From NCBI GenBank assembly GCA_965285935.1, contig OZ260663.1:55056001-55120000 (forward strand): DNA of 64,000 nucleotides, read 5' to 3'. Positions 2,601-63,003 of the stretch are shown here, in pieces; position 1 is the stretch's first letter, and every line of letters begins with the position of its first letter. The DNA comes from Ophelia neglecta. Its lineage: Eukaryota. The translations under genes and the position numbers were made by a program. The notes under the pieces were generated by a model, which was given only the letters and a program-made list of their open reading frames with translations, was not told the origin of the DNA and made no database searches.

Positions 2601-5600
2601 CTGGAAAGAGGCAGCAAGAAATCTGCTCAGTTTTGGATTCAGATTAGATTTTAATTGTGTTAATAGCTTCATCTACTGATTACAATGACAAACATGCTGC
2701 TGTGGCTAAATTAGCTAGGCTGGGCTGGGTGTGTAGAGAACTGGACTGGAGGAGACATGGGGCAGTGACTTTTAGTCCTGATTCTATGGAACTCTGTTGA
2801 TTAGGCATACAGCAGAATTGACATAAAACCAGGTCTCAACATTTTAGAAATTTCAAATTTAAATATGGAAAAGAACTCACAGTTTTCCTGAAATAGTCTT
2901 AATTTAAAATCAACTAGATAAGATACCCCCTGAATACTGGGCTAGATGTGTATTGTCTCCACAAACTGAGATTAGTTGGGCATCCACAGGGTTATACTGT
3001 CAAAAAGTAAATTTAGATGGTTAGTAACATGGTATGACTATGTGATCATAGATACCAGCCACCAACCAAGTTCCCCCAAACCATAATCCTTATAATATAA
3101 AGACCACCAATCCAAAGGCCCACCAAAAGACCCTGTAAGAAATCTGCCCACCTCAGAAACCCAAGCCAAGCAATCTATTGCACCAGCCACCAGCTAATAA
3201 ATAGATTAGCATGAAAACATTTTGGTATGAGGTTATGAAGGAAATATTTTGATAATTATTTCTGAGGATGGGCAATGAATAGCATAAATATCTCTGAAAC
3301 ATCACTACATGACATATACTTCCTTCATAACTTCAAAATAATAACTAACATAAATAATGCTGGGTAATAGGATGCCTTAATACATTAAAATATGCAGACT
3401 TTTTCCAATGTTTTACAACCCATACCAAGTTGCAGACCACCCACAATTTCTCTGTAAAAATAAATAAATTCCTTCAAAAAGGAGGAGGTATCCCACCATA
3501 AAATCCACTTCCACCAAACCGTTGTTTCAAATGAGTTAATTAACATATGGCTAACAGCCTTCCATACTTAATTTAAATGAACACTAGTGATCTTAAAGTC
3601 ATCATGACTATTTTCCATCAGACCACACAAAACCTAATGCATCCTGTCACCCATTCATAACAAGCAATGTTTAATTTCATATAAATTTATGTAGAAATAA
3701 TCAACCATTATGTATCAAAATGGTTGATAACTCCTACACACATTGCACTAACATCTCATGCTTTTTTTGGTATTTATATATACAAACATAGTTACAGTTA
3801 AGAAGGTCACCAATGTGTCACTTTTCAGGTCAGCATGGGAGTGGCACATTTCTACACAACATAATAGTTTAAAAAAATATAAAAACAATTCTGCCTTCTG
3901 AACAGGTGTGCCTCTTGATGGCCAACCGATGGTAACACATTGATGACCAATGTTCACTATCATCAGAAAAACCAGGCTCCTAAGTATACACCTTGGCAAA
4001 AAGGAGGTTAACCTAAGATTTATAGCATTTTTATTTAGTGTGCAAATAAAATATGCAGATTGTAAATGGCATCTCCGGTGTTCTTAATGTTTGAAGTTTA
4101 ATTTTTTCTTCTTTTGCTAAGGTGCAGACTCGTGAGGAACTAGGGTATATTGTCTTACATAAAGATAGAGTTAAGTGTGTTTGCCTGATACATACCTTAC
4201 CGGCCATGGCAGCCTGCTGAGCAATGTCCAAAGGAGGTCCCAAGGACCTCCCTGGTAGCTCCTCTGTTTTCTCCTCCTCCCTACGCTTTAAGCATGCTGC
4301 CTTAGGGTTTAAGTTGCGCTCTGGAAATAAGCACACATTAAAATATGAGTTTCAAATTGATAAACTTGACAGATTACTAACTATCAAAACTGCTATTCAC
4401 ACCAAATAGAAACCAGATACACCTGAATATCTTATACTTTATTATTTTATTTATATATATCATACAATAACAATATTTAAAGAAATGTTCCATAGCATGC
4501 TTGAATACAGGCAGACATATAAATACAAAATGCTGTTAGGACATTTTTTTCTTCAATAAACCATAACCAGGGGTTAGTGGCCACTCTAGCTTAATTCTCA
4601 ATTAAAAGCGTTTACACACATAAAATATACACACTTGGGTTAACATAATATAATAATAAATGCTGTTAGTCCACAACAGAACATTACCTCTGACTTGCTG
4701 CTCTAAACTGGTTATTACTGACACTGCATGTTGCAAGATAGTCAGCTTTGTTTGGGGTTTGTCCGTGCTAAGGTGAAGTGAGCACATGCGACCCAATTCT
4801 TTGAAGGCCCCGTTGATATCACGCACACGTATCCTGTGGGGGAAGAGAGAAGACGGGAGTTTGGAGGTTGTTCATGCATGCACTCACATTCATACTAGCA
4901 GAGGTGGATTTAGAAACCATTGGGATAGAGGGGCGAGGGCATTATTGACAAAGTAGGGTTCCCAGGGTATTCCCATACGGACTTGGGTAGGATATGGGGC
5001 ATCTCTCGTAGGATTTTTTTTGGTCAGTGTCAGGGCTTGGGCCCAAGTCTTGCCGAGCAACACGGCTAGTACAATTCCTTCTGCAGCCTCTCAGGACTGT
5101 TCTGGCTTTTTCAAACATGCAAGCAAACCATGCAGAAGCATTCTGTGTCAAGGCCACTTGTAGATCAGGCAATCGGTTGCTTGAGAGTGGTTTTTACCTC
5201 GGACTTGTTGCTCAAGGGTAGTGATGACATTGACTGCCTGCTGCAGAATCATCAGCTTGGTCATCGGCTGACCATTGCTAGTATGGATAGAGATCATGTG
5301 ACCTAACTCTTTGAATGCTTCGTTTATGTCCCGTACTCGTAATCTGTTGGGCAATCCAGTGGCATTGAGAATTAGAATGGACAATACCTTAACAGCATAT
5401 ACAAGAAAACAAGCACAGTAAAAATGTCCAATCAACTGTTTATCATACACTATCAGCAACATAAGAAATTAATTTTCACTTATATTTACTTGTTATTTTT
5501 CCAATTTATATTTTCAGAAAATTGTATGTTCCTTGTTATTCTGTGTACTCCTGTGTCAACTTAGCCAACAACACTTTTGCTCTTTTCTCCGTAAACTTTC

Positions 5601-8600
5601 ATCAACACCAGCTGCCTTTAGCCTTACCTTTCTCTAGCATTATTAGCCTGCCGCCGCAATCGTTCACGCTCTGCTTTAGATTCTGGGCTCTCATTGGGAT
5701 CATCTTCCTCCTCGTTTCTGTAAAAGCCAAACAATCTATCACATCCGTAATAATGGGTGATGAAAATAATTGGCACAATGGCACCCTACCATAATCACAA
5801 GAATTAAAATGGGTTTTCCCAAAATGGACATTAATATAACTTAATGCATCCAGAAACCACATAAGGTGTTGAGAATGCTAAAAACAGGCAAATAATGGGC
5901 AACAGGGAGCTCTTAGAGTGGCTTGTACTAGCACATTCCGCATGTCAATGAGAAGGTTAAATAAAATATTCCCCTCATCACTTGAAGAAGTCCTGAACAG
6001 ATATTCTGATGTGAAATCAACTTACTCTGAATCAAGACTTGGTCCAAGCGAGTCCCTACAATCACAAGGGGAAACAAAAATAACATGAAATGGTAGAAAT
6101 AAAACAAGGTTTTGCCATACACTTTAGAAACCACTACTAGGGTGGAGAGACTGTGAAGACAGGGTGGTATATATGATGATAATGCTACCCTGCTTACACT
6201 GGCCCTACTATGACTTTAGCCATACAGAACATTGACATATTACCAAATGATTACTATTTTGTGCAGCTCATGTGCAAACAAAAGTTAATTAAATAATGCA
6301 AAGGATCCAAAATTTGGATGTTTTAATGGGTGACCTAGTCCATGTGGTCTTTTGGTTGCCTAAGGCTAGTATGTCTGAGAATAATATTAAAGCAAAGACA
6401 GCCATGAAAGCCGAGGAAATATATTAATACTGAGAAATTGTTCATTGGAGGCCTGGGGAAAAAAAGCATAATTTTTACTTAGTACTCTGACAAATAATGG
6501 AGCATTATACAACTTAACCAGTTAGCAAGCGAATCCAAAAAAACATCGAGAAATCAATATGGTTGGCATGCTAGTTTGAAGTGTTAAATACAAGGATATA
6601 TGCCTATATATAAATATATATATCAGGAGAACCCTATCCGTTCAAAGGAACAGATTAGGTTTTTACTGGCTATTATCTCTGAATCACTGAAGAAACCAAG
6701 TTGAAATTGGCTTGTATAAATTTTGAACATTCTGCGACAATAAATAAGCAAATAAAAAACAAAAGAACACCTTATACCAGCAGACTGGTTGGAATTGGCA
6801 TTTATACCAATTAATATCAAAACTATCAACTATATAGTCATTTCCTATCCATATAAAGTTTCTAGTATCTAAATAGAATTTTTATTTTCATTAGTACAAG
6901 TCGACTCAGTGTGCCAGTAGGTTTTTACTTACTGCCTTGATCTTTTGGATGGCGGAGCACCACTCTGTGGTGTCAAAGGAGAAGTCATATCTGACAGTGA
7001 TCCCGAAGTGCGACCAGATTCCTTCATTTTTTGGTCTTTCTTACTACTTTCATCGGCCGTTTTTTCAACTTTCAATTTTTCTATTTTTATGTGGCCATCC
7101 GTAGTTTGTTCTGTTGGTTGTTCATTTCTTAAGTCTATAAATGTGGGTACAAAATATAGATTAGGTAATGGAAATTGAAAGCAAATCAGTGCATGATGAT
7201 AATTAATATACTAGATACATGGTCAGTTTCTGGAATTCTTTATTGCAAGAAAGATATGTTCTTAATACATAAATATGAAGATATTTTATACACAAGGGAT
7301 GCTCCTTCTACACAGTTCTTGTAGATTGTTTATTAATCTATTTTAATGTAAATATATTCTTACTATTGACAGATGATTGATCCGGGCCTGTGTGTCTATT
7401 ATGTGATCGCTCATCTGATAATGATGTGTGGTTGCCACCCTGAAATAATTGAGGAAAATTAATATGTAAATATGATATGTATTATGAGAGCTGCCTGTGA
7501 CTGGGTTGAGTATGAGTGATGGTAGATTATGAGGGAGTGACAGCCTGTTATATTTGACCCTGGGTATATATCTGGCCCTGGGTATATGATGGTTGATTAT
7601 GAGGGAGAGATAGGCTGTTGACCCTGGGTATATGCTGTCCCATGTTACCCTTTTCATCGCCCCGCCTTGTCTGATGAGGCAGGCTGGTTTCCCTGACCCT
7701 CCTCCACCCGTGCCAGCCTCTCCCCACTCCACATGTGTGACTTGTTAGAGGACGCTCCTACTATTAACCACCCTCCCTCTTCACCGCAGTCAAGTTCATC
7801 CCTGGTCACTGAAAACAGGAATAAATGACTCCAACTTTGACCCACACCCTCAAATTTATCCACATGATATTGACTTCCACTGCGTCAGGCACTGCACAGT
7901 GACTTCTCCAATTTGACAGAAGGAGGCAAGAAAATTGCACCTTCAATCTCTCTACACCATTTGCCATCTGGTTGCATTATACAGCATAGGAGGGGACAGT
8001 TTTCAACACTTTGACAGCTACAGAAAGTGAAATCAGAGGCATGTTTTGTTGGAACTGGATACCTGCCATACACCATGATATTAGGTGATATGTGTCAGGG
8101 AGAGAGATGGCACCTGGGTGCGGGGTTGCTCCAGAGCGGTCCTAAGGAGGGCCTCACTACAGGTATGGGGAGCTAGCCATGATACAGCACCATGCCAGCC
8201 CCAGGCCCACTCACAAGCACCTGTTGTACTTCAGCTACTGCTCAGCTACAAGCTGGATACAGTTTCTATCACATCCTCCACATCTACACACCCCACTCCC
8301 ATCAGTATGGTGAATGTCAATTAACCCATCAACACAATGGGACTGGCTCAGACCACCTACAATCATGGATCTCTCTAAAAACCAAGCCAATCAACTATCT
8401 ACACTCATCATTCCATCATACCTACAGCAGCCAATCCTAACTCACACTTCCTCTTGTCATCTCTTTGTTAAAACCATACCTCGCTGCCACATAATGCCAC
8501 ACAGCACTACTTACAACTAGATTTTCTAAATGTTACAGAGAAGGCGTAAGCAAAGGGGGGATTAAAAGAAACTGATCTCCTACCAAATCATAATGGTATC

Positions 8601-11600
8601 CATAGAAGTCCTGTGCATTGGTGTATTGTAGACTGGTATTGTACGGCTGTACTTGGTTTCCATGATATGTATTGTAAGGTAGAGTGGTATTGTTCTGTAG
8701 AGAGCCTTGCTGGTCCTGAATGGCACTCGGGTTGTATTGTGCAGCGTTGTTGTACCACGTACCACCTGAGGCGTACCCCTGTTGGTAGGCTGGTGGGAAC
8801 TGGGATATATCCAGTGGAAACTGGGAATACCACATGGTGCCGTTTCTCACACCATTAGCCACTAAAATATATCCAAATAGCTAAAGGAAGCTAGGACTGT
8901 CAGTGGAATTAAGGCTCATTAAGTTTCCTTGAAGTCATCAAGGGAGGAGAGCTTTGCCAATAAAGATGGTTGTATGACGGGTCCTTAGCCTGCTCTGGCC
9001 CTTCCCCTTCCGATCCAAGCCTACTCCCAGCCTACTCCACTCTGAAGCTTTTTCCAAATCTTTCACGATATGCTGGCTTGATTTGTTCAAGACCTGCCCA
9101 TCTTGAAGTATTTTGTACCAGTTGAATATACACAGATGGAAAACATTGGAAACAATTATCTTTGAAGCAGCTCATTGAGCAATATTGACCAACAGTCATA
9201 GAGAGCAGCATCCAATCACAGGGGCACAATCTTACCATCAGAACTTGGAAACCCAACTAGCCAGATACTTGGGGGCTTTGGAAAGATAACATCTAGCATA
9301 ACTGGTTACATGTGGTTCACATTATCTATGATGTTGAGATATACCATCTGAGCACTCAACATGTAATTTTTTTGAACTTTTTCTTACACACCCTTATGCT
9401 AATGCCCTTGGCACAGTTTTAATTTGAAAGCCATGCAATCACACACCATTGCCTGGAATGCGACTTTCAAGCATTTTGGGCCTGTGGTTTTCAAGATGAG
9501 TGTACATGCCTGCTATGTGGGAGTGCGACCAGTGATTTTGCCACTGTATATTTTGAATGATGTGCGAGGACATCTGAGCAGGTATGATATGATGTATTTA
9601 TATTACCCTCCTCTGTTCCTGCCGTTTTTCTAGAACATGTTTGATCTGTTTTGACACAAGAAGCAGAGACTCCTTCCCACTCCTTCCCAGCAACAGTTCT
9701 ACCTTGACACATGTAGTTGCTATGGAAACCAGGGGATCAACCCATCAATAATTACTTTCAGAGTGATCTGATGGGCAGATCTGAGAGGCGGCTGATGTTT
9801 ACACTGGTGACTTTGTAAACTGTAGATTCTCAGGGAGGTGGGTAGGGTTCCCTGCCTTTGACAGTTACAAAATAAACAAAGTGGCCTCAGTAGCTCCAGA
9901 TGTTGTGTACATCTCTGGCAGATACTAGCCTTCTGTGCTGGTCCCAGTCTTCTCTACAGACTAATTAGCTCATTTAGATAATCTCTCATCAAATGTAAGC
10001 AGAATACTCCTTGAAATATCATGGCGTTCTCTATGATGAAAGTTGGCTCAGCTTGGGCTTCAAACGAGCAGGGTCATGTTATGAGAACACATCAAAATGC
10101 TCACCTGGTTTCAATCAGGATCATCCTGGAGTAAGACAGCTCAGCAAGCTTTATGAGCACTATTTACCAAATTCATCTTCACTATGTGATGATCCCAGCC
10201 TCTTTAACGTGCTAAAAGGTGTCCATGCCTTCCACTAAAGCATCTTTGGAGAGCAATTCTCTCAAACCATGATCTTGAAGGTCAGCACAAGTAATTTCAG
10301 ATAAAGAATTTATGGAACTACAGATTTTTATTGTATATTGTCATATTTCCCCCCTTAGAGCAGTCAGGGCCAATTATGGCCTCAATAATGGAGTAGTGTT
10401 TCTGATGTAAATAAATCACCTGCCCTGGCCAGTCTGTTATAGATGAGTAGTCCAGCTGAGCCCAAGTGTTCGTGTTCATTTGCTTGTATGACATCACTTT
10501 GTAGATGTATCCCTCAGCTGTGTCTAAAACCTGAAGCAGGCCTCCATTACAGTACAGCACAGGCAGCCGACCCCTGCAACTTTGGTCAATATTTTGAGAC
10601 AGTATAACCCCGAGGTATGGCACCTTGTCAGAGCCCTGCTTCCAATTGCCCCGCTATTTACAGAGAAGACCCTGTGTAATTTTCCCCATACTTTCCATAA
10701 TTTTCCCCATACTTTCCTTTCGGTAATTAGCCATTAAATCGAGATGCCCCTGTGATTTTATTGGCTCCATCTTTGCTAGTAAAGCGATTCCTGGTTGTTT
10801 CCTGCCCAGTTGTTCTGTGGGGTTTGTGTAGTGGCTACAAGAGAAGATTGGCATAAGGGCAGAGAGAAACAACAAATTTGCATTCTCCGGTAGACCACAC
10901 GCGCTTGGGGGTTAATTCTGCACAGGACTGAAGCTCAAAACCTGTGGTGAACTCTTATTGGAGGGACAGAGGACTGAGAATAAATTCTAATCATCAGTAA
11001 TTGTTTGATGACTAGACTGTCAAAATGAAATCACAGCCTACCAGTTTCATGTCAATCATACAATCTCTCTGACTTACATCTTACAAAACTGATGACAACA
11101 AAAAGGCAATTGCTCAAATGTCAAGCAGCAACATACTAAAACAATTATTTATTTATAATGTTTTTTTTATCACTGTCCAAAATAGTTTGTGTATAAATAA
11201 TGTATGATAAAGTTCTTGCACACAAAATTAATGACTCGTAGGTTTTCTTATTTATCGTATAAGCAGGCAATATCTTACCATGTGTGATTCCATCATGCCC
11301 ATGCCCGGCGGGTATGCTGTGCCCATGTTGCCGGACATGAAGCCATTGGAATGTGGTCCGGGCATCATCCCGGGCATGTGCCCAGGGGGCATCATTTGGC
11401 CTGACTCCGCATGGTTTCGTAAGACATGGATGGCATCGTCCAGCCGTTCCTCCATTTTGCTTTGCTATAAGAAAATATCTTGGTAATAATACGTTGACAA
11501 TTTATTTTCAGGCATTGTCATTTTTGTTAATGCCAGTTAAGTTGGAATCCTTGTTAGTAACATTGAAACATTTATATGTTTTACTAGAAGTGATGAGGTG

Positions 11601-62600: not shown

Positions 62601-63003
62601 TGCACATGTGACATGTACTTTTCAGATGAGATAAGTTGAGAATTTGGCAAGTACGCCCAACAAGCAATCGAAATGTGTATAAAGTGATATTCCACTATCC
62701 TCCTCCCATGTACTAGTCAATCACTCATACAAAATGGCTGTTTAAATACCAGAGGCGCCAGGCAGTCTGGCTCGACTACCTCACTGGGCCAGCCGGCTAT
62801 TTTTAGTCAAGGCAATCCGCAGTGATCCCCAGAATTTCCTCAAATCTTACCAACAATGAATCACACTAGGAAAAAGATTTAATTTCAAGAAAATTAATAA
62901 GACTAGGAAAAGCAGATTACTCACGACATGAGCTTCGATAGTACGGATTTTGGTAATAGGGATGGTGTCCATGATGGTATGGTTGCTTTTGATATGGGTA
63001 CAT
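2550..63003 (-). CDS. TCF12: Multi-exon class I bHLH E-protein gene (TCF3/TCF4/TCF12/daughterless family); AD1-coding 5' end probably outside the window
   Basis: Chain of GT-AG-bounded exons with consistent phases. Encodes family hallmarks: [69 protein letters not shown]-(L/I)RVRDIN-AFKELG...[24 protein letters not shown]. Symbol is for the most similar-looking vertebrate paralogue; likely co-orthologous to TCF3/4/12. Confidence 0.96.
4196..4320 (-). CDS. TCF12: C-domain exon (E)[40 protein letters not shown](K); tandem donors at 4201 and 4196
   Basis: Acceptor ttatttccag|, invariant E-protein C-domain motif, donors CCG|gtaagg and AAG|gtatgt. Confidence 0.95.
4688..4833 (-). CDS. TCF12: HLH exon B (mutually exclusive): [48 protein letters not shown]
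   Basis: 146 nt, phase 2 in and 1 out. Acceptor tctctcttcccccacag|, donor GAG|gtaatg. Intact E-protein HLH. Confidence 0.95.
4873..5134 (-). promoter_or_regulatory. Four UGCAUG (Rbfox) splicing elements between HLH exons A and B
   Basis: CATGCA on + at 4873-4878, 4877-4882, 5116-5121 and 5129-5134. Confidence 0.65.
5198..5343 (-). CDS. TCF12: HLH exon A (mutually exclusive): [48 protein letters not shown]
   Basis: 146 nt, same phases as exon B. Acceptor cccaacag|, donor GAG|gtaaaa. Open frame, 34/48 aa identical to exon B. Confidence 0.92.
5628..5717 (-). CDS. TCF12: Acidic plus basic-region exon [29 protein letters not shown](R)
   Basis: 90 nt, phase 2-2. ttttacag| and AAG|gtaagg. E-box-reading RRxANNARER motif. 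Confidence 0.95.
6933..7134 (-). CDS. TCF12: Exon [24 protein letters not shown]...PPSKRSR(Q)
   Basis: 202 nt, phase 1-2. tttatag| and GCA|gtaagt. IKxE motif at the equivalent position to vertebrate IKTE/IKSE. Confidence 0.9.
7364..7439 (-). CDS. TCF12: Exon [25 protein letters not shown]
   Basis: 76 nt, phase 0-1. ttatttcag| and ATA|gtaaga. Required to bridge the phases of its neighbours. Confidence 0.85.
7500..7635. repeat. Degenerate local repeat
   Basis: ccctgggtatat x3 and gattatgagggag x2. Confidence 0.65.
8584..8880 (-). CDS. Candidate cassette exon encoding a 99-aa Tyr/Asn/Gln-rich low-complexity segment
   Basis: Open frame starts exactly at acceptor cttcctttag| (phase 0) and reaches donor TTG|gtagga (phase 0). 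Second acceptor atattttag| at 8861 (phase 1). Strongly biased composition. Confidence 0.5.
9716..9729. promoter_or_regulatory. RFX X-box GTTGCTATGGAAAC
   Basis: Fits the 14-bp X-box consensus GTHNYY-AT-RRNAAC. FOX-type motifs nearby: TGTTTAC 9796-9802 and ATAAACAAA 9872-9880. Confidence 0.45.
10677..10717. repeat. 21-bp tandem duplication
   Basis: taattttccccatactttcc(a) x2. Confidence 0.8.
11279..11464 (-). CDS. TCF12: AD2 helix exon [30 protein letters not shown]...MESHM
   Basis: 186 nt, phase 0-0. ttcttatag| and ATG|gtaaga. Conserved [12 protein letters not shown]. Confidence 0.95.
12915..12974 (-). CDS. TCF12: 60-nt cassette exon, duplicate AD2 helix [20 protein letters not shown]
   Basis: ccaatag| and GAG|gtaacc, phase 0-0. 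13/20 aa identical to the start of the next exon. Absent from the ORF track. Confidence 0.88.
13668..13753 (-). CDS. TCF12: Exon (G)[28 protein letters not shown]
   Basis: 86 nt, phase 1-0. gtttcag| and CTG|gtaagc. Resembles TCF12 SQWPRPGG..SPSYENSLHSL. Confidence 0.92.
13762..13855. repeat. Degenerate ggtgagaa repeat in the pyrimidine tract upstream of exon 13753
   Basis: Repeated (g)gtgaga(a) units, UUCUCACC in the pre-mRNA. Confidence 0.55.
14290..14492. promoter_or_regulatory. Intronic E-box cluster (8 CANNTG)
   Basis: CAAATG 14290, CAACTG 14301, CAGCTG 14311, CAGGTG 14319, CAATTG 14350, CAGATG 14388, CACATG 14479, CAAGTG 14487. Confidence 0.4.
14801..14882 (-). CDS. TCF12: Exon [27 protein letters not shown]
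   Basis: 82 nt, phase 0-1. tatttcag| and CAG|gtaaga. Resembles [22 protein letters not shown]. Confidence 0.94.
15047..15094. repeat. 24-bp tandem duplication
   Basis: gatctgctcaagatattaaaccaa followed by gatctgctcaaggcattaaaccaa. Confidence 0.85.
19339..19569 (-). CDS. TCF12: Exon GYHPMSP...[10 protein letters not shown]...[15 protein letters not shown]
   Basis: 231 nt, phase 0-0. tttttgcag| and TCT|gtaagt. Conserved LPPMSSF, PPING and [10 protein letters not shown]. Confidence 0.95.
21425..21576 (-). CDS. TCF12: Exon (D)[50 protein letters not shown]
   Basis: 152 nt, phase 1-0. tttcatcag| and ATG|gtaagt. DG..DPWS motif as in TCF4. Confidence 0.9.
23756..23890. mobile_element. Possible non-autonomous transposon fragment with internal repeats
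   Basis: CpG-rich patch in a CpG-poor intron. ggtgaaagg(c/t)ga x3 (23782, 23802, 23871) and hairpin ggcgaa/ttcgcc. Family not identified. Confidence 0.35.
24591..24696 (-). CDS. TCF12: Exon [35 protein letters not shown]
   Basis: 106 nt, phase 0-1. tttttccag| and CAG|gtaaaa. Resembles VYAPSP..RESPSYPSPK. Confidence 0.93.
27102..27161 (-). CDS. TCF12: Alternative first coding exon [20 protein letters not shown] (HEBAlt/TCF4-A 'Alt'-like)
   Basis: ATG-initiated 20 codons ending at TCA|gtaagt, phase 0 into the VYSPS exon. Same position and similar start to vertebrate MYCAY(P/T)...YYYNGK. Confidence 0.82.
43075..43124 (-). CDS. TCF12: NLS exon (G)[16 protein letters not shown]
   Basis: 50 nt, phase 1-0. 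tatttccag| and TCA|gtaagt. Basic cluster at the position of vertebrate KKVRK. Confidence 0.88.
43944..44093. repeat. Degenerate minisatellite, about 3 copies of a 55-65 bp unit
   Basis: tggctNgctcta...attgcaattYatatcctac repeated, with an internal (atatg)n run. Confidence 0.65.
44508..44610 (-). CDS. TCF12: Exon [34 protein letters not shown]
   Basis: 103 nt, phase 0-1. tcttttcag| and GAG|gtaaag. KPGSxYY motif. Confidence 0.9.
51899..51922 (+). repeat. Poly(A) tract
   Basis: About 24 consecutive A. Confidence 0.85.
52042..52097 (-). CDS. TCF12: Exon [18 protein letters not shown]
   Basis: 56 nt, phase 1-0. tttttcag| and CAG|gtaagt. YSRD motif as in TCF12. Confidence 0.85.
54392..54476 (-). 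CDS. TCF12: Exon [28 protein letters not shown]
   Basis: 85 nt, phase 0-1. cttttccag| and TGA|gtaaga. Resembles SPTPFMNSNLM. Confidence 0.87.
54941..55053 (-). CDS. TCF12: Gly-rich exon [37 protein letters not shown]
   Basis: 113 nt, phase 1-0. gttgcag| and AGG|gtaagt. W...PSY..R ending as in the vertebrate exon. Confidence 0.88.
62925..63003 (-). CDS. TCF12: Probable alternative first coding exon [26 protein letters not shown] (in-frame upstream ATG at 63030 also possible)
   Basis: 79 nt, donor GTC|gtgagt, phase 1 matching the exon at 55053. Non-random Tyr/His/Pro composition, no upstream pyrimidine tract. Confidence 0.65.

What the first reader, a model, noticed from the sequence alone, without database searches (positions are those of the whole stretch)
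8533..8880. Hidden prion-like Tyr/Asn/Gln module between AD2 and the bHLH
Seen: a 297-nt phase 0-0 candidate exon encoding 99 aa with 13 Tyr, 11 Asn, 13 Gln, only five charged residues and no Lys or Glu. It fits in frame between exons 11279 and 7439. Reading through the weak donor stops at 8533, giving a bHLH-less product. An internal ATG at 8835 could start a short isoform. Known: such composition resembles FET-family low-complexity activation/condensate domains, and I know no counterpart in vertebrate E-proteins. Inference: an optional condensate or activation module.
Basis: partly seen in the sequence, partly recalled or inferred. Interest (0 to 1): 0.72.

Follow-up and report, generated by a model that had tools for sequence, protein, structure and literature searches.

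The report
Hidden second start in E-protein gene
An intron of an E-protein transcription-factor gene, in what is likely an annelid worm, holds a tyrosine-rich reading frame conserved in another species; it is likely the first coding exon of a short protein that would keep the DNA-binding part but replace all known activation domains.

Summary
The gene is the E-protein (TCF12/TCF4/daughterless) gene of a probable annelid. The conserved unit is ATG 8835 to donor 8584 (84 codons), not the 297-nt cassette.

An unnamed protein (P0051, E 1.4e-18) matches from this Met to this donor. In 80 E-protein loci, a composition filter picks 4 sense-strand ORFs and 0 antisense. All 4 start Met-Trp and lie downstream of AD2. 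In L034 it is the same intron. Between L014 and L024, conservation starts at the ATG and ends at the GT. L034 and L024 have no in-frame acceptor, so a cassette is not the conserved mode.

Window and L034 also share a non-coding block 0.85-1.07 kb upstream, with forkhead sites and an RFX X-box.

Best reading: an internal-promoter isoform with a Tyr-rich, lysine-free N-terminus and the bHLH, but no AD1, AD3 or AD2. All human TCF4 isoforms keep AD2. No RNA was available, so splicing, start site, tissue and activity are inferred. FET-like condensate behaviour is untested, and this exon has no [G/S]Y[G/S] repeat.

The parts
8584..8835 (-). Conserved coding exon: ATG-TGG (Met-Trp) to phase-0 donor TTG|gtagga; 84 aa, 12 Tyr, 17 aromatic, 4 Asp, no Lys/Arg/Glu; likely first coding exon of a short isoform
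8836..8880 (-). 45 nt before the ATG: open for 15 codons from a weak acceptor (8880), second weak AG at 8861; likely 5' UTR; no conserved counterpart in homologous loci
8533..8583 (-). Read-through tail past the donor (16 codons + TAA); unconserved, likely intron
9847..9902 (-). Non-coding block conserved with L034 at the same distance from the ATG (79% over 56 nt, E 6e-7; 20 nt identical); holds an E-box (CATCTG) and a forkhead core site
9716..9729 (.). RFX X-box-like palindrome GTTTCCATAGCAAC, 894 nt before the ATG; L034 has GTTTCCATGGAAAC at -878
   Evidence: consensus from PMC4168999
9595..9602 (-). TATA-like TATAAATA about 115 nt downstream of the X-box; possible core promoter (inferred; L034 has its TATA at -63 instead)
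9230..9238 (-). Strong donor ATG|gtaaga at 9236 (score 10.7); possible end of a non-coding leader exon (inferred); L034 has a strong donor at -190
11279..11464 (-). AD2 exon of the E-protein gene (upstream neighbour; phase-0 donor); would be excluded from the short isoform
7364..7439 (-). Next shared exon (phase-0 acceptor); predicted splice partner of donor 8584
6933..7134 (-). Shared linker exon ending in a basic, NLS-like stretch (NLS role inferred)
5628..5717 (-). Basic-region exon of the bHLH
5198..5343 (-). HLH exon, copy 1 (Pfam PF00010)
4688..4833 (-). HLH exon, copy 2 (Pfam PF00010); likely used as an alternative to copy 1
4201..4320 (-). Exon after the HLH, shared with named E-proteins

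Best explanation
The conserved Tyr-rich frame from ATG 8835 to donor 8584 is likely the first coding exon of a short E-protein isoform, likely made from a promoter inside the intron after AD2. Shown: conserved coding signature, conserved Met-Trp start, conserved phase-0 donor position, unconserved sequence before the ATG, and a non-coding block shared with L034. Inferred steps: (1) the forkhead/X-box/E-box block at 9902-9716 switches on an internal transcript, with or without a non-coding leader ending at 9236; (2) translation starts at ATG 8835; (3) 8584 splices to 7439 and on to the basic and HLH exons, giving about 298 aa or about 569 aa by last-exon choice; (4) the protein dimerises and binds E-boxes like the long form but lacks AD1, AD3 and AD2, and carries a disordered aromatic, lysine-free N-terminus instead. 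I commit to that N-terminus acting as a substitute activation and interaction module (about 50%), ahead of an activation-dead competitor (about 30%). The stated confidence is for the first-coding-exon architecture.
For: P0051 begins at this Met and loses similarity at the donor; its next residue is Val, whose codon must start with GT. L034 has the same exon chain and, in the same intron, an 83-codon Met-Trp frame ending TGG|gtaagt that joins in frame to the next two exons. L014 vs L024: DNA similarity starts at the ATG context and ends at the GT; mismatches by codon position 44/33/79 over 156 codons; 51 of 100 identical residues use different codons. AD2 donors are phase 0 in 4 of 4 loci, but open in-frame acceptors before the ATG number 0 of 4 AGs in L034 and 0 of 1 in L024, where a stop lies 2 codons upstream. 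A filter blind to start residue and position finds 4 loci on the sense strand and 0 antisense in 432,586 nt. A purine stands at -3 in 5 of 5 loci. The upstream block is conserved, while four other intron pairs share nothing. Precedent: human TCF4 has many alternative 5' exons; HEBAlt has a Tyr-rich alternative N-terminus; named abalone isoforms begin with Tyr-rich alternative N-termini.
Against: No transcript evidence either way. Peptide similarity of the window exon to L034, L014 and L024 is weak (16, 8 and 3 of 500 shuffles reach the score) and absent for L060 (376 of 500); those four rest on position, composition and the Met-Trp start. The next exon was found only in L034, not in L014, L024 or L060. 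Filter thresholds were set after the hits were seen. 19 of 20 loci that span AD2 to the basic/HLH exon lack such a frame, including four with 3.3-4.7 kb intervals. 0 of 48 named mollusc isoforms listed lack AD2 or begin Met-Trp. The window and L014 each keep a weak in-frame acceptor. A leader from the TATA at 9602 would hold 13-20 upstream ATGs. The strict X-box is absent from L014, L024 and L060. The genomic context of P0051 could not be seen.
Confidence: 0.76

Rival explanations
1. Cassette exon: 11279>8880 and 8584>7439 insert 99 aa between AD2 and the bHLH of the full-length protein.
For: Phase 0-0, open, joins in frame. Acceptor 8880 is at the 87th percentile of AGs; L014 has a similar weak in-frame AG 78 nt before its ATG. 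It could be a minor, lineage-specific extra use.
Against: Not possible in frame in L034 and L024. Conservation starts at the Met. Acceptor weaker than 16 of 18 real ones. AD2-to-HLH distance in 48 of 48 named isoforms is 181-213 aa, close to 179 aa without the exon and far from 278 aa with it; those are molluscs.
Confidence: 0.12
2. A separate intronic microprotein gene or a terminal exon: translation runs through the donor to TAA 8533 and gives a 100-aa peptide or a bHLH-less E-protein.
For: Donor 8584 is weaker than most of the gene's donors; the frame is closed by a stop 16 codons later.
Against: All six sequences have a phase-0 GT (or a Val codon) at the end of the Tyr-rich part; tails beyond are unrelated and 4-38 aa long; L034's donor is near-consensus.
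Confidence: 0.06
3. The upstream block is an enhancer for the whole gene, and the short isoform starts at a separate proximal promoter; the X-box then says nothing about where the short isoform is expressed. This rival concerns regulation only and is compatible with the best explanation.
For: The block lies 0.85-1.07 kb before the ATG; many upstream ATGs lie between. CCAAT-like sites at -126 (window), -94 (L034) and -125 (L024), and a TATA at -63 in L034, suit a proximal start.
Against: Distance to the ATG is nearly the same in window and L034 (1067 vs 1075; 894 vs 878) although the sequence between is unalignable.
Confidence: 0.35
4. Chance open frame with no function.
For: Open ATG-to-GT frames of this length arise in 134 of 1000 simulated introns.
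Against: 0 of 1000 reach this Tyr content; homologue at E 1.4e-18 with matching ends; codon-position bias in L014/L024.
Confidence: 0.03

Closest known systems
HEBAlt (TCF12) / E2-2Alt
   Same: E-protein isoform with an alternative, Tyr-rich N-terminal exon from inside the gene; lacks AD1; the Alt domain is needed for activity and its YYY motif is phosphorylated (PMC9385190, passages). L014 and L024 exons contain YYY.
   Different: The Alt domain is 23 aa, sits between exons 8 and 9 upstream of AD2, and HEBAlt keeps AD2. This exon is 83-164 aa, lies downstream of AD2 and would remove it. The window exon has no YYY.
Human TCF4 alternative 5' exons (TCF4-A, -D, -H, -I)
   Same: Mutually exclusive 5' exons spliced to the next internal exon give N-terminally shorter E-proteins (PMC3137626, passages).
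   Different: The paper states that all TCF4 isoforms contain AD2 and the bHLH; the most downstream 5' exons precede exon 10. None starts after AD2.
Sea-urchin E-protein alternative form (Schrankel et al. 2016, PMID 27265865)
   Same: By its title, a conserved alternative E-protein form in an invertebrate that switches regulatory state (title seen in a reference list).
   Different: Paper not held; the position of its exon was not checked. I recall it as the HEBAlt equivalent, which would lie upstream of AD2.
FET-family (FUS/EWSR1/TAF15) low-complexity domains
   Same: Tyr-rich, charge-poor, predicted disordered N-terminal region joined to a nucleic-acid-binding domain (FET features recalled; composition; model).
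   Different: No sequence homology tested or found; 84 aa; 0 [G/S]Y[G/S] motifs in the window exon and P0051, 1 in L034, 5-6 in L024/L014; phase separation untested.
RFX + forkhead promoters of motile-cilia genes
   Same: Palindromic X-box next to forkhead core sites, matching the published consensus (PMC4168999, passages); Rfx motifs are enriched in such promoters from cnidarians to humans (bioRxiv 085571, passages).
   Different: Start site unknown, so distance to it is unknown; many Rfx2-bound promoters are not cilia-specific; strict X-box seen in only 2 of 5 loci with the exon.

Membership tests
E-protein (class I bHLH) gene | HLH domain | tested here: met
   PF00010 over cut-off in both HLH exons; 36-38 of 48 residues identical to named TCF4/12-like proteins
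E-protein (class I bHLH) gene | AD1 with LDFS motif and AD2 | tested here: met
   LDFS exon about 26.5 kb beyond the window end; AD2 exon 11464-11279 hits named E-proteins; AD1/LDFS described in PMC6317319
HEBAlt/TCF4-A-type Alt isoform | Alternative first exon from an internal promoter | tested here: inconclusive
   Comparative anatomy supports it; no transcript data
HEBAlt/TCF4-A-type Alt isoform | Exon lies upstream of AD2 and the isoform keeps AD2 | tested here: not met
   Exon lies 2.4 kb downstream of the AD2 exon
HEBAlt/TCF4-A-type Alt isoform | About 23-aa Alt domain with YYY motif | tested here: not met
   84 aa and no YYY in the window; YYY only in L014 and L024
FET-type prion-like domain | Tyr-rich, charge-poor low-complexity composition (recalled) | tested here: met
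   Tyr 14%, 4 charged of 84, no Lys
FET-type prion-like domain | Repeated [G/S]Y[G/S] motifs (recalled) | tested here: not met
   0 in window and P0051; 1, 6, 5 and 0 in L034, L014, L024, L060
FET-type prion-like domain | Intrinsic disorder | tested here: inconclusive
   Mean pLDDT 43.6, no helix or strand, but from a 2-sequence alignment
FET-type prion-like domain | PLAAC prion-like score | not tested
   PLAAC is not among the tools
FET-type prion-like domain | Phase separation or transactivation | not testable with these tools
   Needs droplet and GAL4-fusion assays
RFX/forkhead ciliary promoter | X-box RYYNYY-N(1-3)-RRNRAC with nearby RYMAAYA, conserved | tested here: met
   Window -894 and L034 -878; forkhead cores at -967/-974 and about -1040 in both; not in L014, L024, L060 by the strict pattern
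RFX/forkhead ciliary promoter | Within about 500 bp of the start site and active in ciliated cells | not testable with these tools
   Start site and expression unknown

The most novel reading that the evidence does not exclude
Annelids carry an ancient RFX/forkhead-driven promoter inside their E-protein gene. In ciliated cells or sperm precursors it makes a domain-swapped E-protein in which AD1, AD3 and AD2 are replaced by a FET-like tyrosine low-complexity domain with a conserved Met-Trp N-terminus: a natural counterpart of FET-fusion transcription factors, built by promoter choice and kept by composition rather than sequence.
Probability: 0.2. Interest if true: 0.8.

Novelty: new variant of a known kind. 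Interest (0 to 1): 0.58.

Why it matters
E-proteins are the shared partners of the proneural, myogenic and other tissue-specific bHLH factors, so their N-terminus sets the output of many dimers. Known short isoforms (TCF4-A, HEBAlt) keep AD2. An isoform that starts after AD2 and brings its own aromatic low-complexity region would change that output in whichever cells use the internal promoter. It is invisible to annotation built on the long form. Five other sequences keep the Met-Trp start, Tyr content, lack of lysine and splice phase while most of the sequence has drifted, which offers a clean test of selection on composition in a disordered region. The conserved X-box gives a testable guess at the cell type.

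Tried and rejected
RNA evidence: no RNA holder listed; the three runs are contigs of one sample that cover introns evenly, so they were read as DNA. One allele in the exon (8587) is synonymous; n=1, not used.

Spliced protein with this exon: none among proteins of 175-2000 aa (22 candidates); only P0051 at 55-219 aa (9 candidates). Weak, because isoforms can hide in clusters; of cluster 6 (49 members) 15 were listed. P0052 is a tandem-repeat ORF and was rejected as a composition hit.

Direct metagenome scan with the exon alignment: 183 pattern matches, none confirmed. A profile of window + P0051 does not detect the L014/L024/L034/L060 exons. Pfam: no family for the exon. ESM Atlas gave no answer. 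Fold search not run, because the model has pLDDT 43.6.

First guess of a mollusc (nearest named proteins) was dropped: the genome has an erythrocruorin-linker match over cut-off. The mollusc haemocyanin search was blank but its control did not ring. The phyla of P0051 and of L014, L024, L034, L060 were not determined.

The loose published X-box consensus hits 78 times in the window, so it carries no weight alone; the strict pattern (1 hit, 0.02 expected) was written after seeing the site. Conservation in L034 is the real support. Earlier findings of the scan: nothing relevant. The splice-site scores come from small matrices (18 acceptors, 14 donors; 2 mis-placed donors dropped) and undervalue donors that are not GTAAG-like.
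Full report
Setting. The window holds most of an E-protein gene on the minus strand. The AD2 exon finds named TCF4/TCF12-like proteins of abalone, a bivalve and a chiton (12 hits among 16 candidates), and these map exon by exon onto the window. The LDFS (AD1) exon lies about 26.5 kb beyond the window end. Both HLH exons pass the Pfam cut-off. The 762-Mb genome has an erythrocruorin-linker match, so it is probably an annelid.

Observation. An open frame of this length is not rare (134 of 1000 simulated introns), but with this Tyr content it is (0 of 1000). The acceptor at 8880 is weak and the donor at 8584 is modest.

Conservation, close range. A search of 1.84 billion representatives gave 2 hits. 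P0052 is a repeat artefact. P0051, an unnamed ORF from a 73-kb contig, aligns from query residue 16, the Met at 8835, to the donor position: E 1.4e-18, 51 of 92 identities by BLASTP. Its next residue is Val, which requires GT at the same phase, and its tail is unrelated. Its upstream DNA could not be seen, so its start is partly the gene caller's choice.

Conservation, long range. A scan with the AD2 exon fetched 80 loci (the best 80 of 128). L034 has the same exon chain, with HLH exons identical at 45 of 48 and 40 of 48 residues. In the same intron it has an 83-codon frame that starts Met-Trp, holds 13 Tyr, ends TGG|gtaagt and joins in frame to the next two exons. L014 and L024 have 164-codon Met-Trp frames about 3.5 kb after AD2, and L060 a 109-codon one. 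A filter for ATG-to-phase-0-GT frames of 80 codons or more, Tyr at least 6% and Lys+Arg at most 2%, blind to start residue and position, returns these 4 loci on the sense strand and none on the antisense strand of 432,586 nt. The thresholds were chosen after the hits were seen.

Limits of that set. Peptide similarity to the window exon is weak for L034, L014 and L024 (16, 8, 3 of 500 shuffles) and nil for L060 (376 of 500). The next exon was identified only in L034. Of 20 loci that span AD2 to the basic or HLH exon, 19 lack such a frame; most are compact, but four have 3.3-4.7 kb intervals. None of 48 named mollusc isoforms listed has it. The exon is therefore restricted to some lineages or gene copies.

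First exon or cassette. Between L014 and L024, similarity begins at the ATG context and ends at the GT, with mismatches of 44/33/79 by codon position and gaps that keep the frame; the leader is unalignable. AD2 donors are phase 0 in all four loci. A cassette needs an in-frame open acceptor before the ATG. L034 has none among 4 open AGs; L024 has a stop two codons upstream and none; L060 has a stop three codons upstream and only two poor ones; the window and L014 each have one weak one. All five have a purine at -3. The conserved mode is thus initiation at Met-Trp. A cassette stays possible as a minor use in this species.

Regulation. Window and L034 share a non-coding block at the same distance before the ATG: 79% over 56 nt (E 6e-7), with 20 nt identical, and a second block around an X-box. 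Shared 8-mers on this diagonal number 24, mostly from one block, against a mean of 5.3 and a maximum of 16 in 47 other bands; four other intron pairs share nothing. The block holds an E-box, two forkhead cores and a palindromic X-box that fit the consensus in PMC4168999 (passages). The strict X-box pattern occurs once in the window (0.02 expected), once in 154 kb around the gene and in 2 of 80 loci. Rfx motifs mark promoters of motile-cilia genes across animals, but Rfx2 also binds many other promoters (bioRxiv 085571, passages). L014 and L024 share other upstream blocks without the strict X-box. The start site is open: a TATA at 9602 with a leader donor at 9236 (13 upstream ATGs if spliced), or a proximal start after the CCAAT-like site at -126.

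Predicted product. Joining 8835-8584 to the downstream exons gives an open frame through either HLH exon: 298 aa with the acceptor at 2600, about 569 aa with the acceptor at 2505. It lacks AD1, AD3 and AD2. The N-terminus is aromatic-rich, weakly acidic and lysine-free in all six sequences. A 2-sequence AlphaFold model has mean pLDDT 43.6 and no secondary structure, in line with disorder but not proof. From general knowledge (no call), spaced aromatics with a few acidic residues and no basic ones typify activation domains and condensate-forming regions, and a retained Met before a bulky residue can act as an N-terminal recognition or degradation signal. These steps are inference.

Comparison with what is known. 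Human TCF4 uses many alternative 5' exons, yet all its isoforms contain AD2 (PMC3137626, passages). HEBAlt has a 23-aa Tyr-rich Alt domain upstream of AD2 with a phosphorylated YYY motif (PMC9385190, passages). Named abalone isoforms also start with short Tyr-rich N-termini further upstream, and the window has a candidate of that kind at 63003. So the feature works like an Alt exon but fails membership on position, size and motif. It resembles FET domains in composition only. Searches listed no paper on an E-protein isoform starting after AD2 (listings and abstract starts only); passages of PMC6317319 and PMC5381572 (0 occurrences of 'isoform') did not mention one. The library lacks most subscription journals; Schrankel et al. 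2016 was seen only as a title; no supplements were read.

Verdict. A real, conserved coding exon (about 0.95), most likely the first coding exon of an isoform without the known activation domains (0.76). New variant of a known kind. Interest 0.58, held back by the lack of RNA and functional data.

Noticed in passing
window 5343-5198 and 4833-4688 (-): Two tandem HLH exons, 34 of 48 residues identical, each open in the isoform chain; resembles E12/E47 choice in TCF3 (recalled). L034, L015, L017 and L087 also have two; the 48 named mollusc isoforms listed use one type per species.
   Followed up: partly
window 12974-12915 (-): A duplicated 60-nt AD2-core mini-exon, phase 0-0, upstream of the main AD2 exon; joins in frame. 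Abalone isoforms have an optional AD2-like insert at this place; L011 and L015-L017 show a second AD2-like hit too.
   Followed up: partly
window 63003-62925 (-): Candidate alternative first exon: 26 codons with 7 Tyr, phase-1 donor, in frame with exon 55053.
   Followed up: partly
window 2626-1685 (-): 314-codon open frame after the last conserved exon, with several acceptors (2625, 2622, 2586, 2505 long; 2600, 2593 short), suggesting alternative long and short C-termini; no Pfam hit.
   Followed up: partly
L064 6348-6361: A perfect X-box 6 kb downstream of AD2, about 700 nt before the contig end; a matching exon could lie beyond the end.
   Followed up: no
L014 and L024, intron after AD2: Several highly conserved non-coding blocks (up to 95% over 98 nt, 89% over 148 nt) upstream of the Met-Trp exon.
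   Followed up: no
L041, L071, L073, L079, L080: HLH coding region split into pieces with a duplicated second half, a different tandem-exon layout.
   Followed up: no
P0015, P0017: Named abalone isoforms with an alternative N-terminus joined to the exon that I recall as matching HEB exon 9; possible molluscan HEBAlt equivalent.
   Followed up: no
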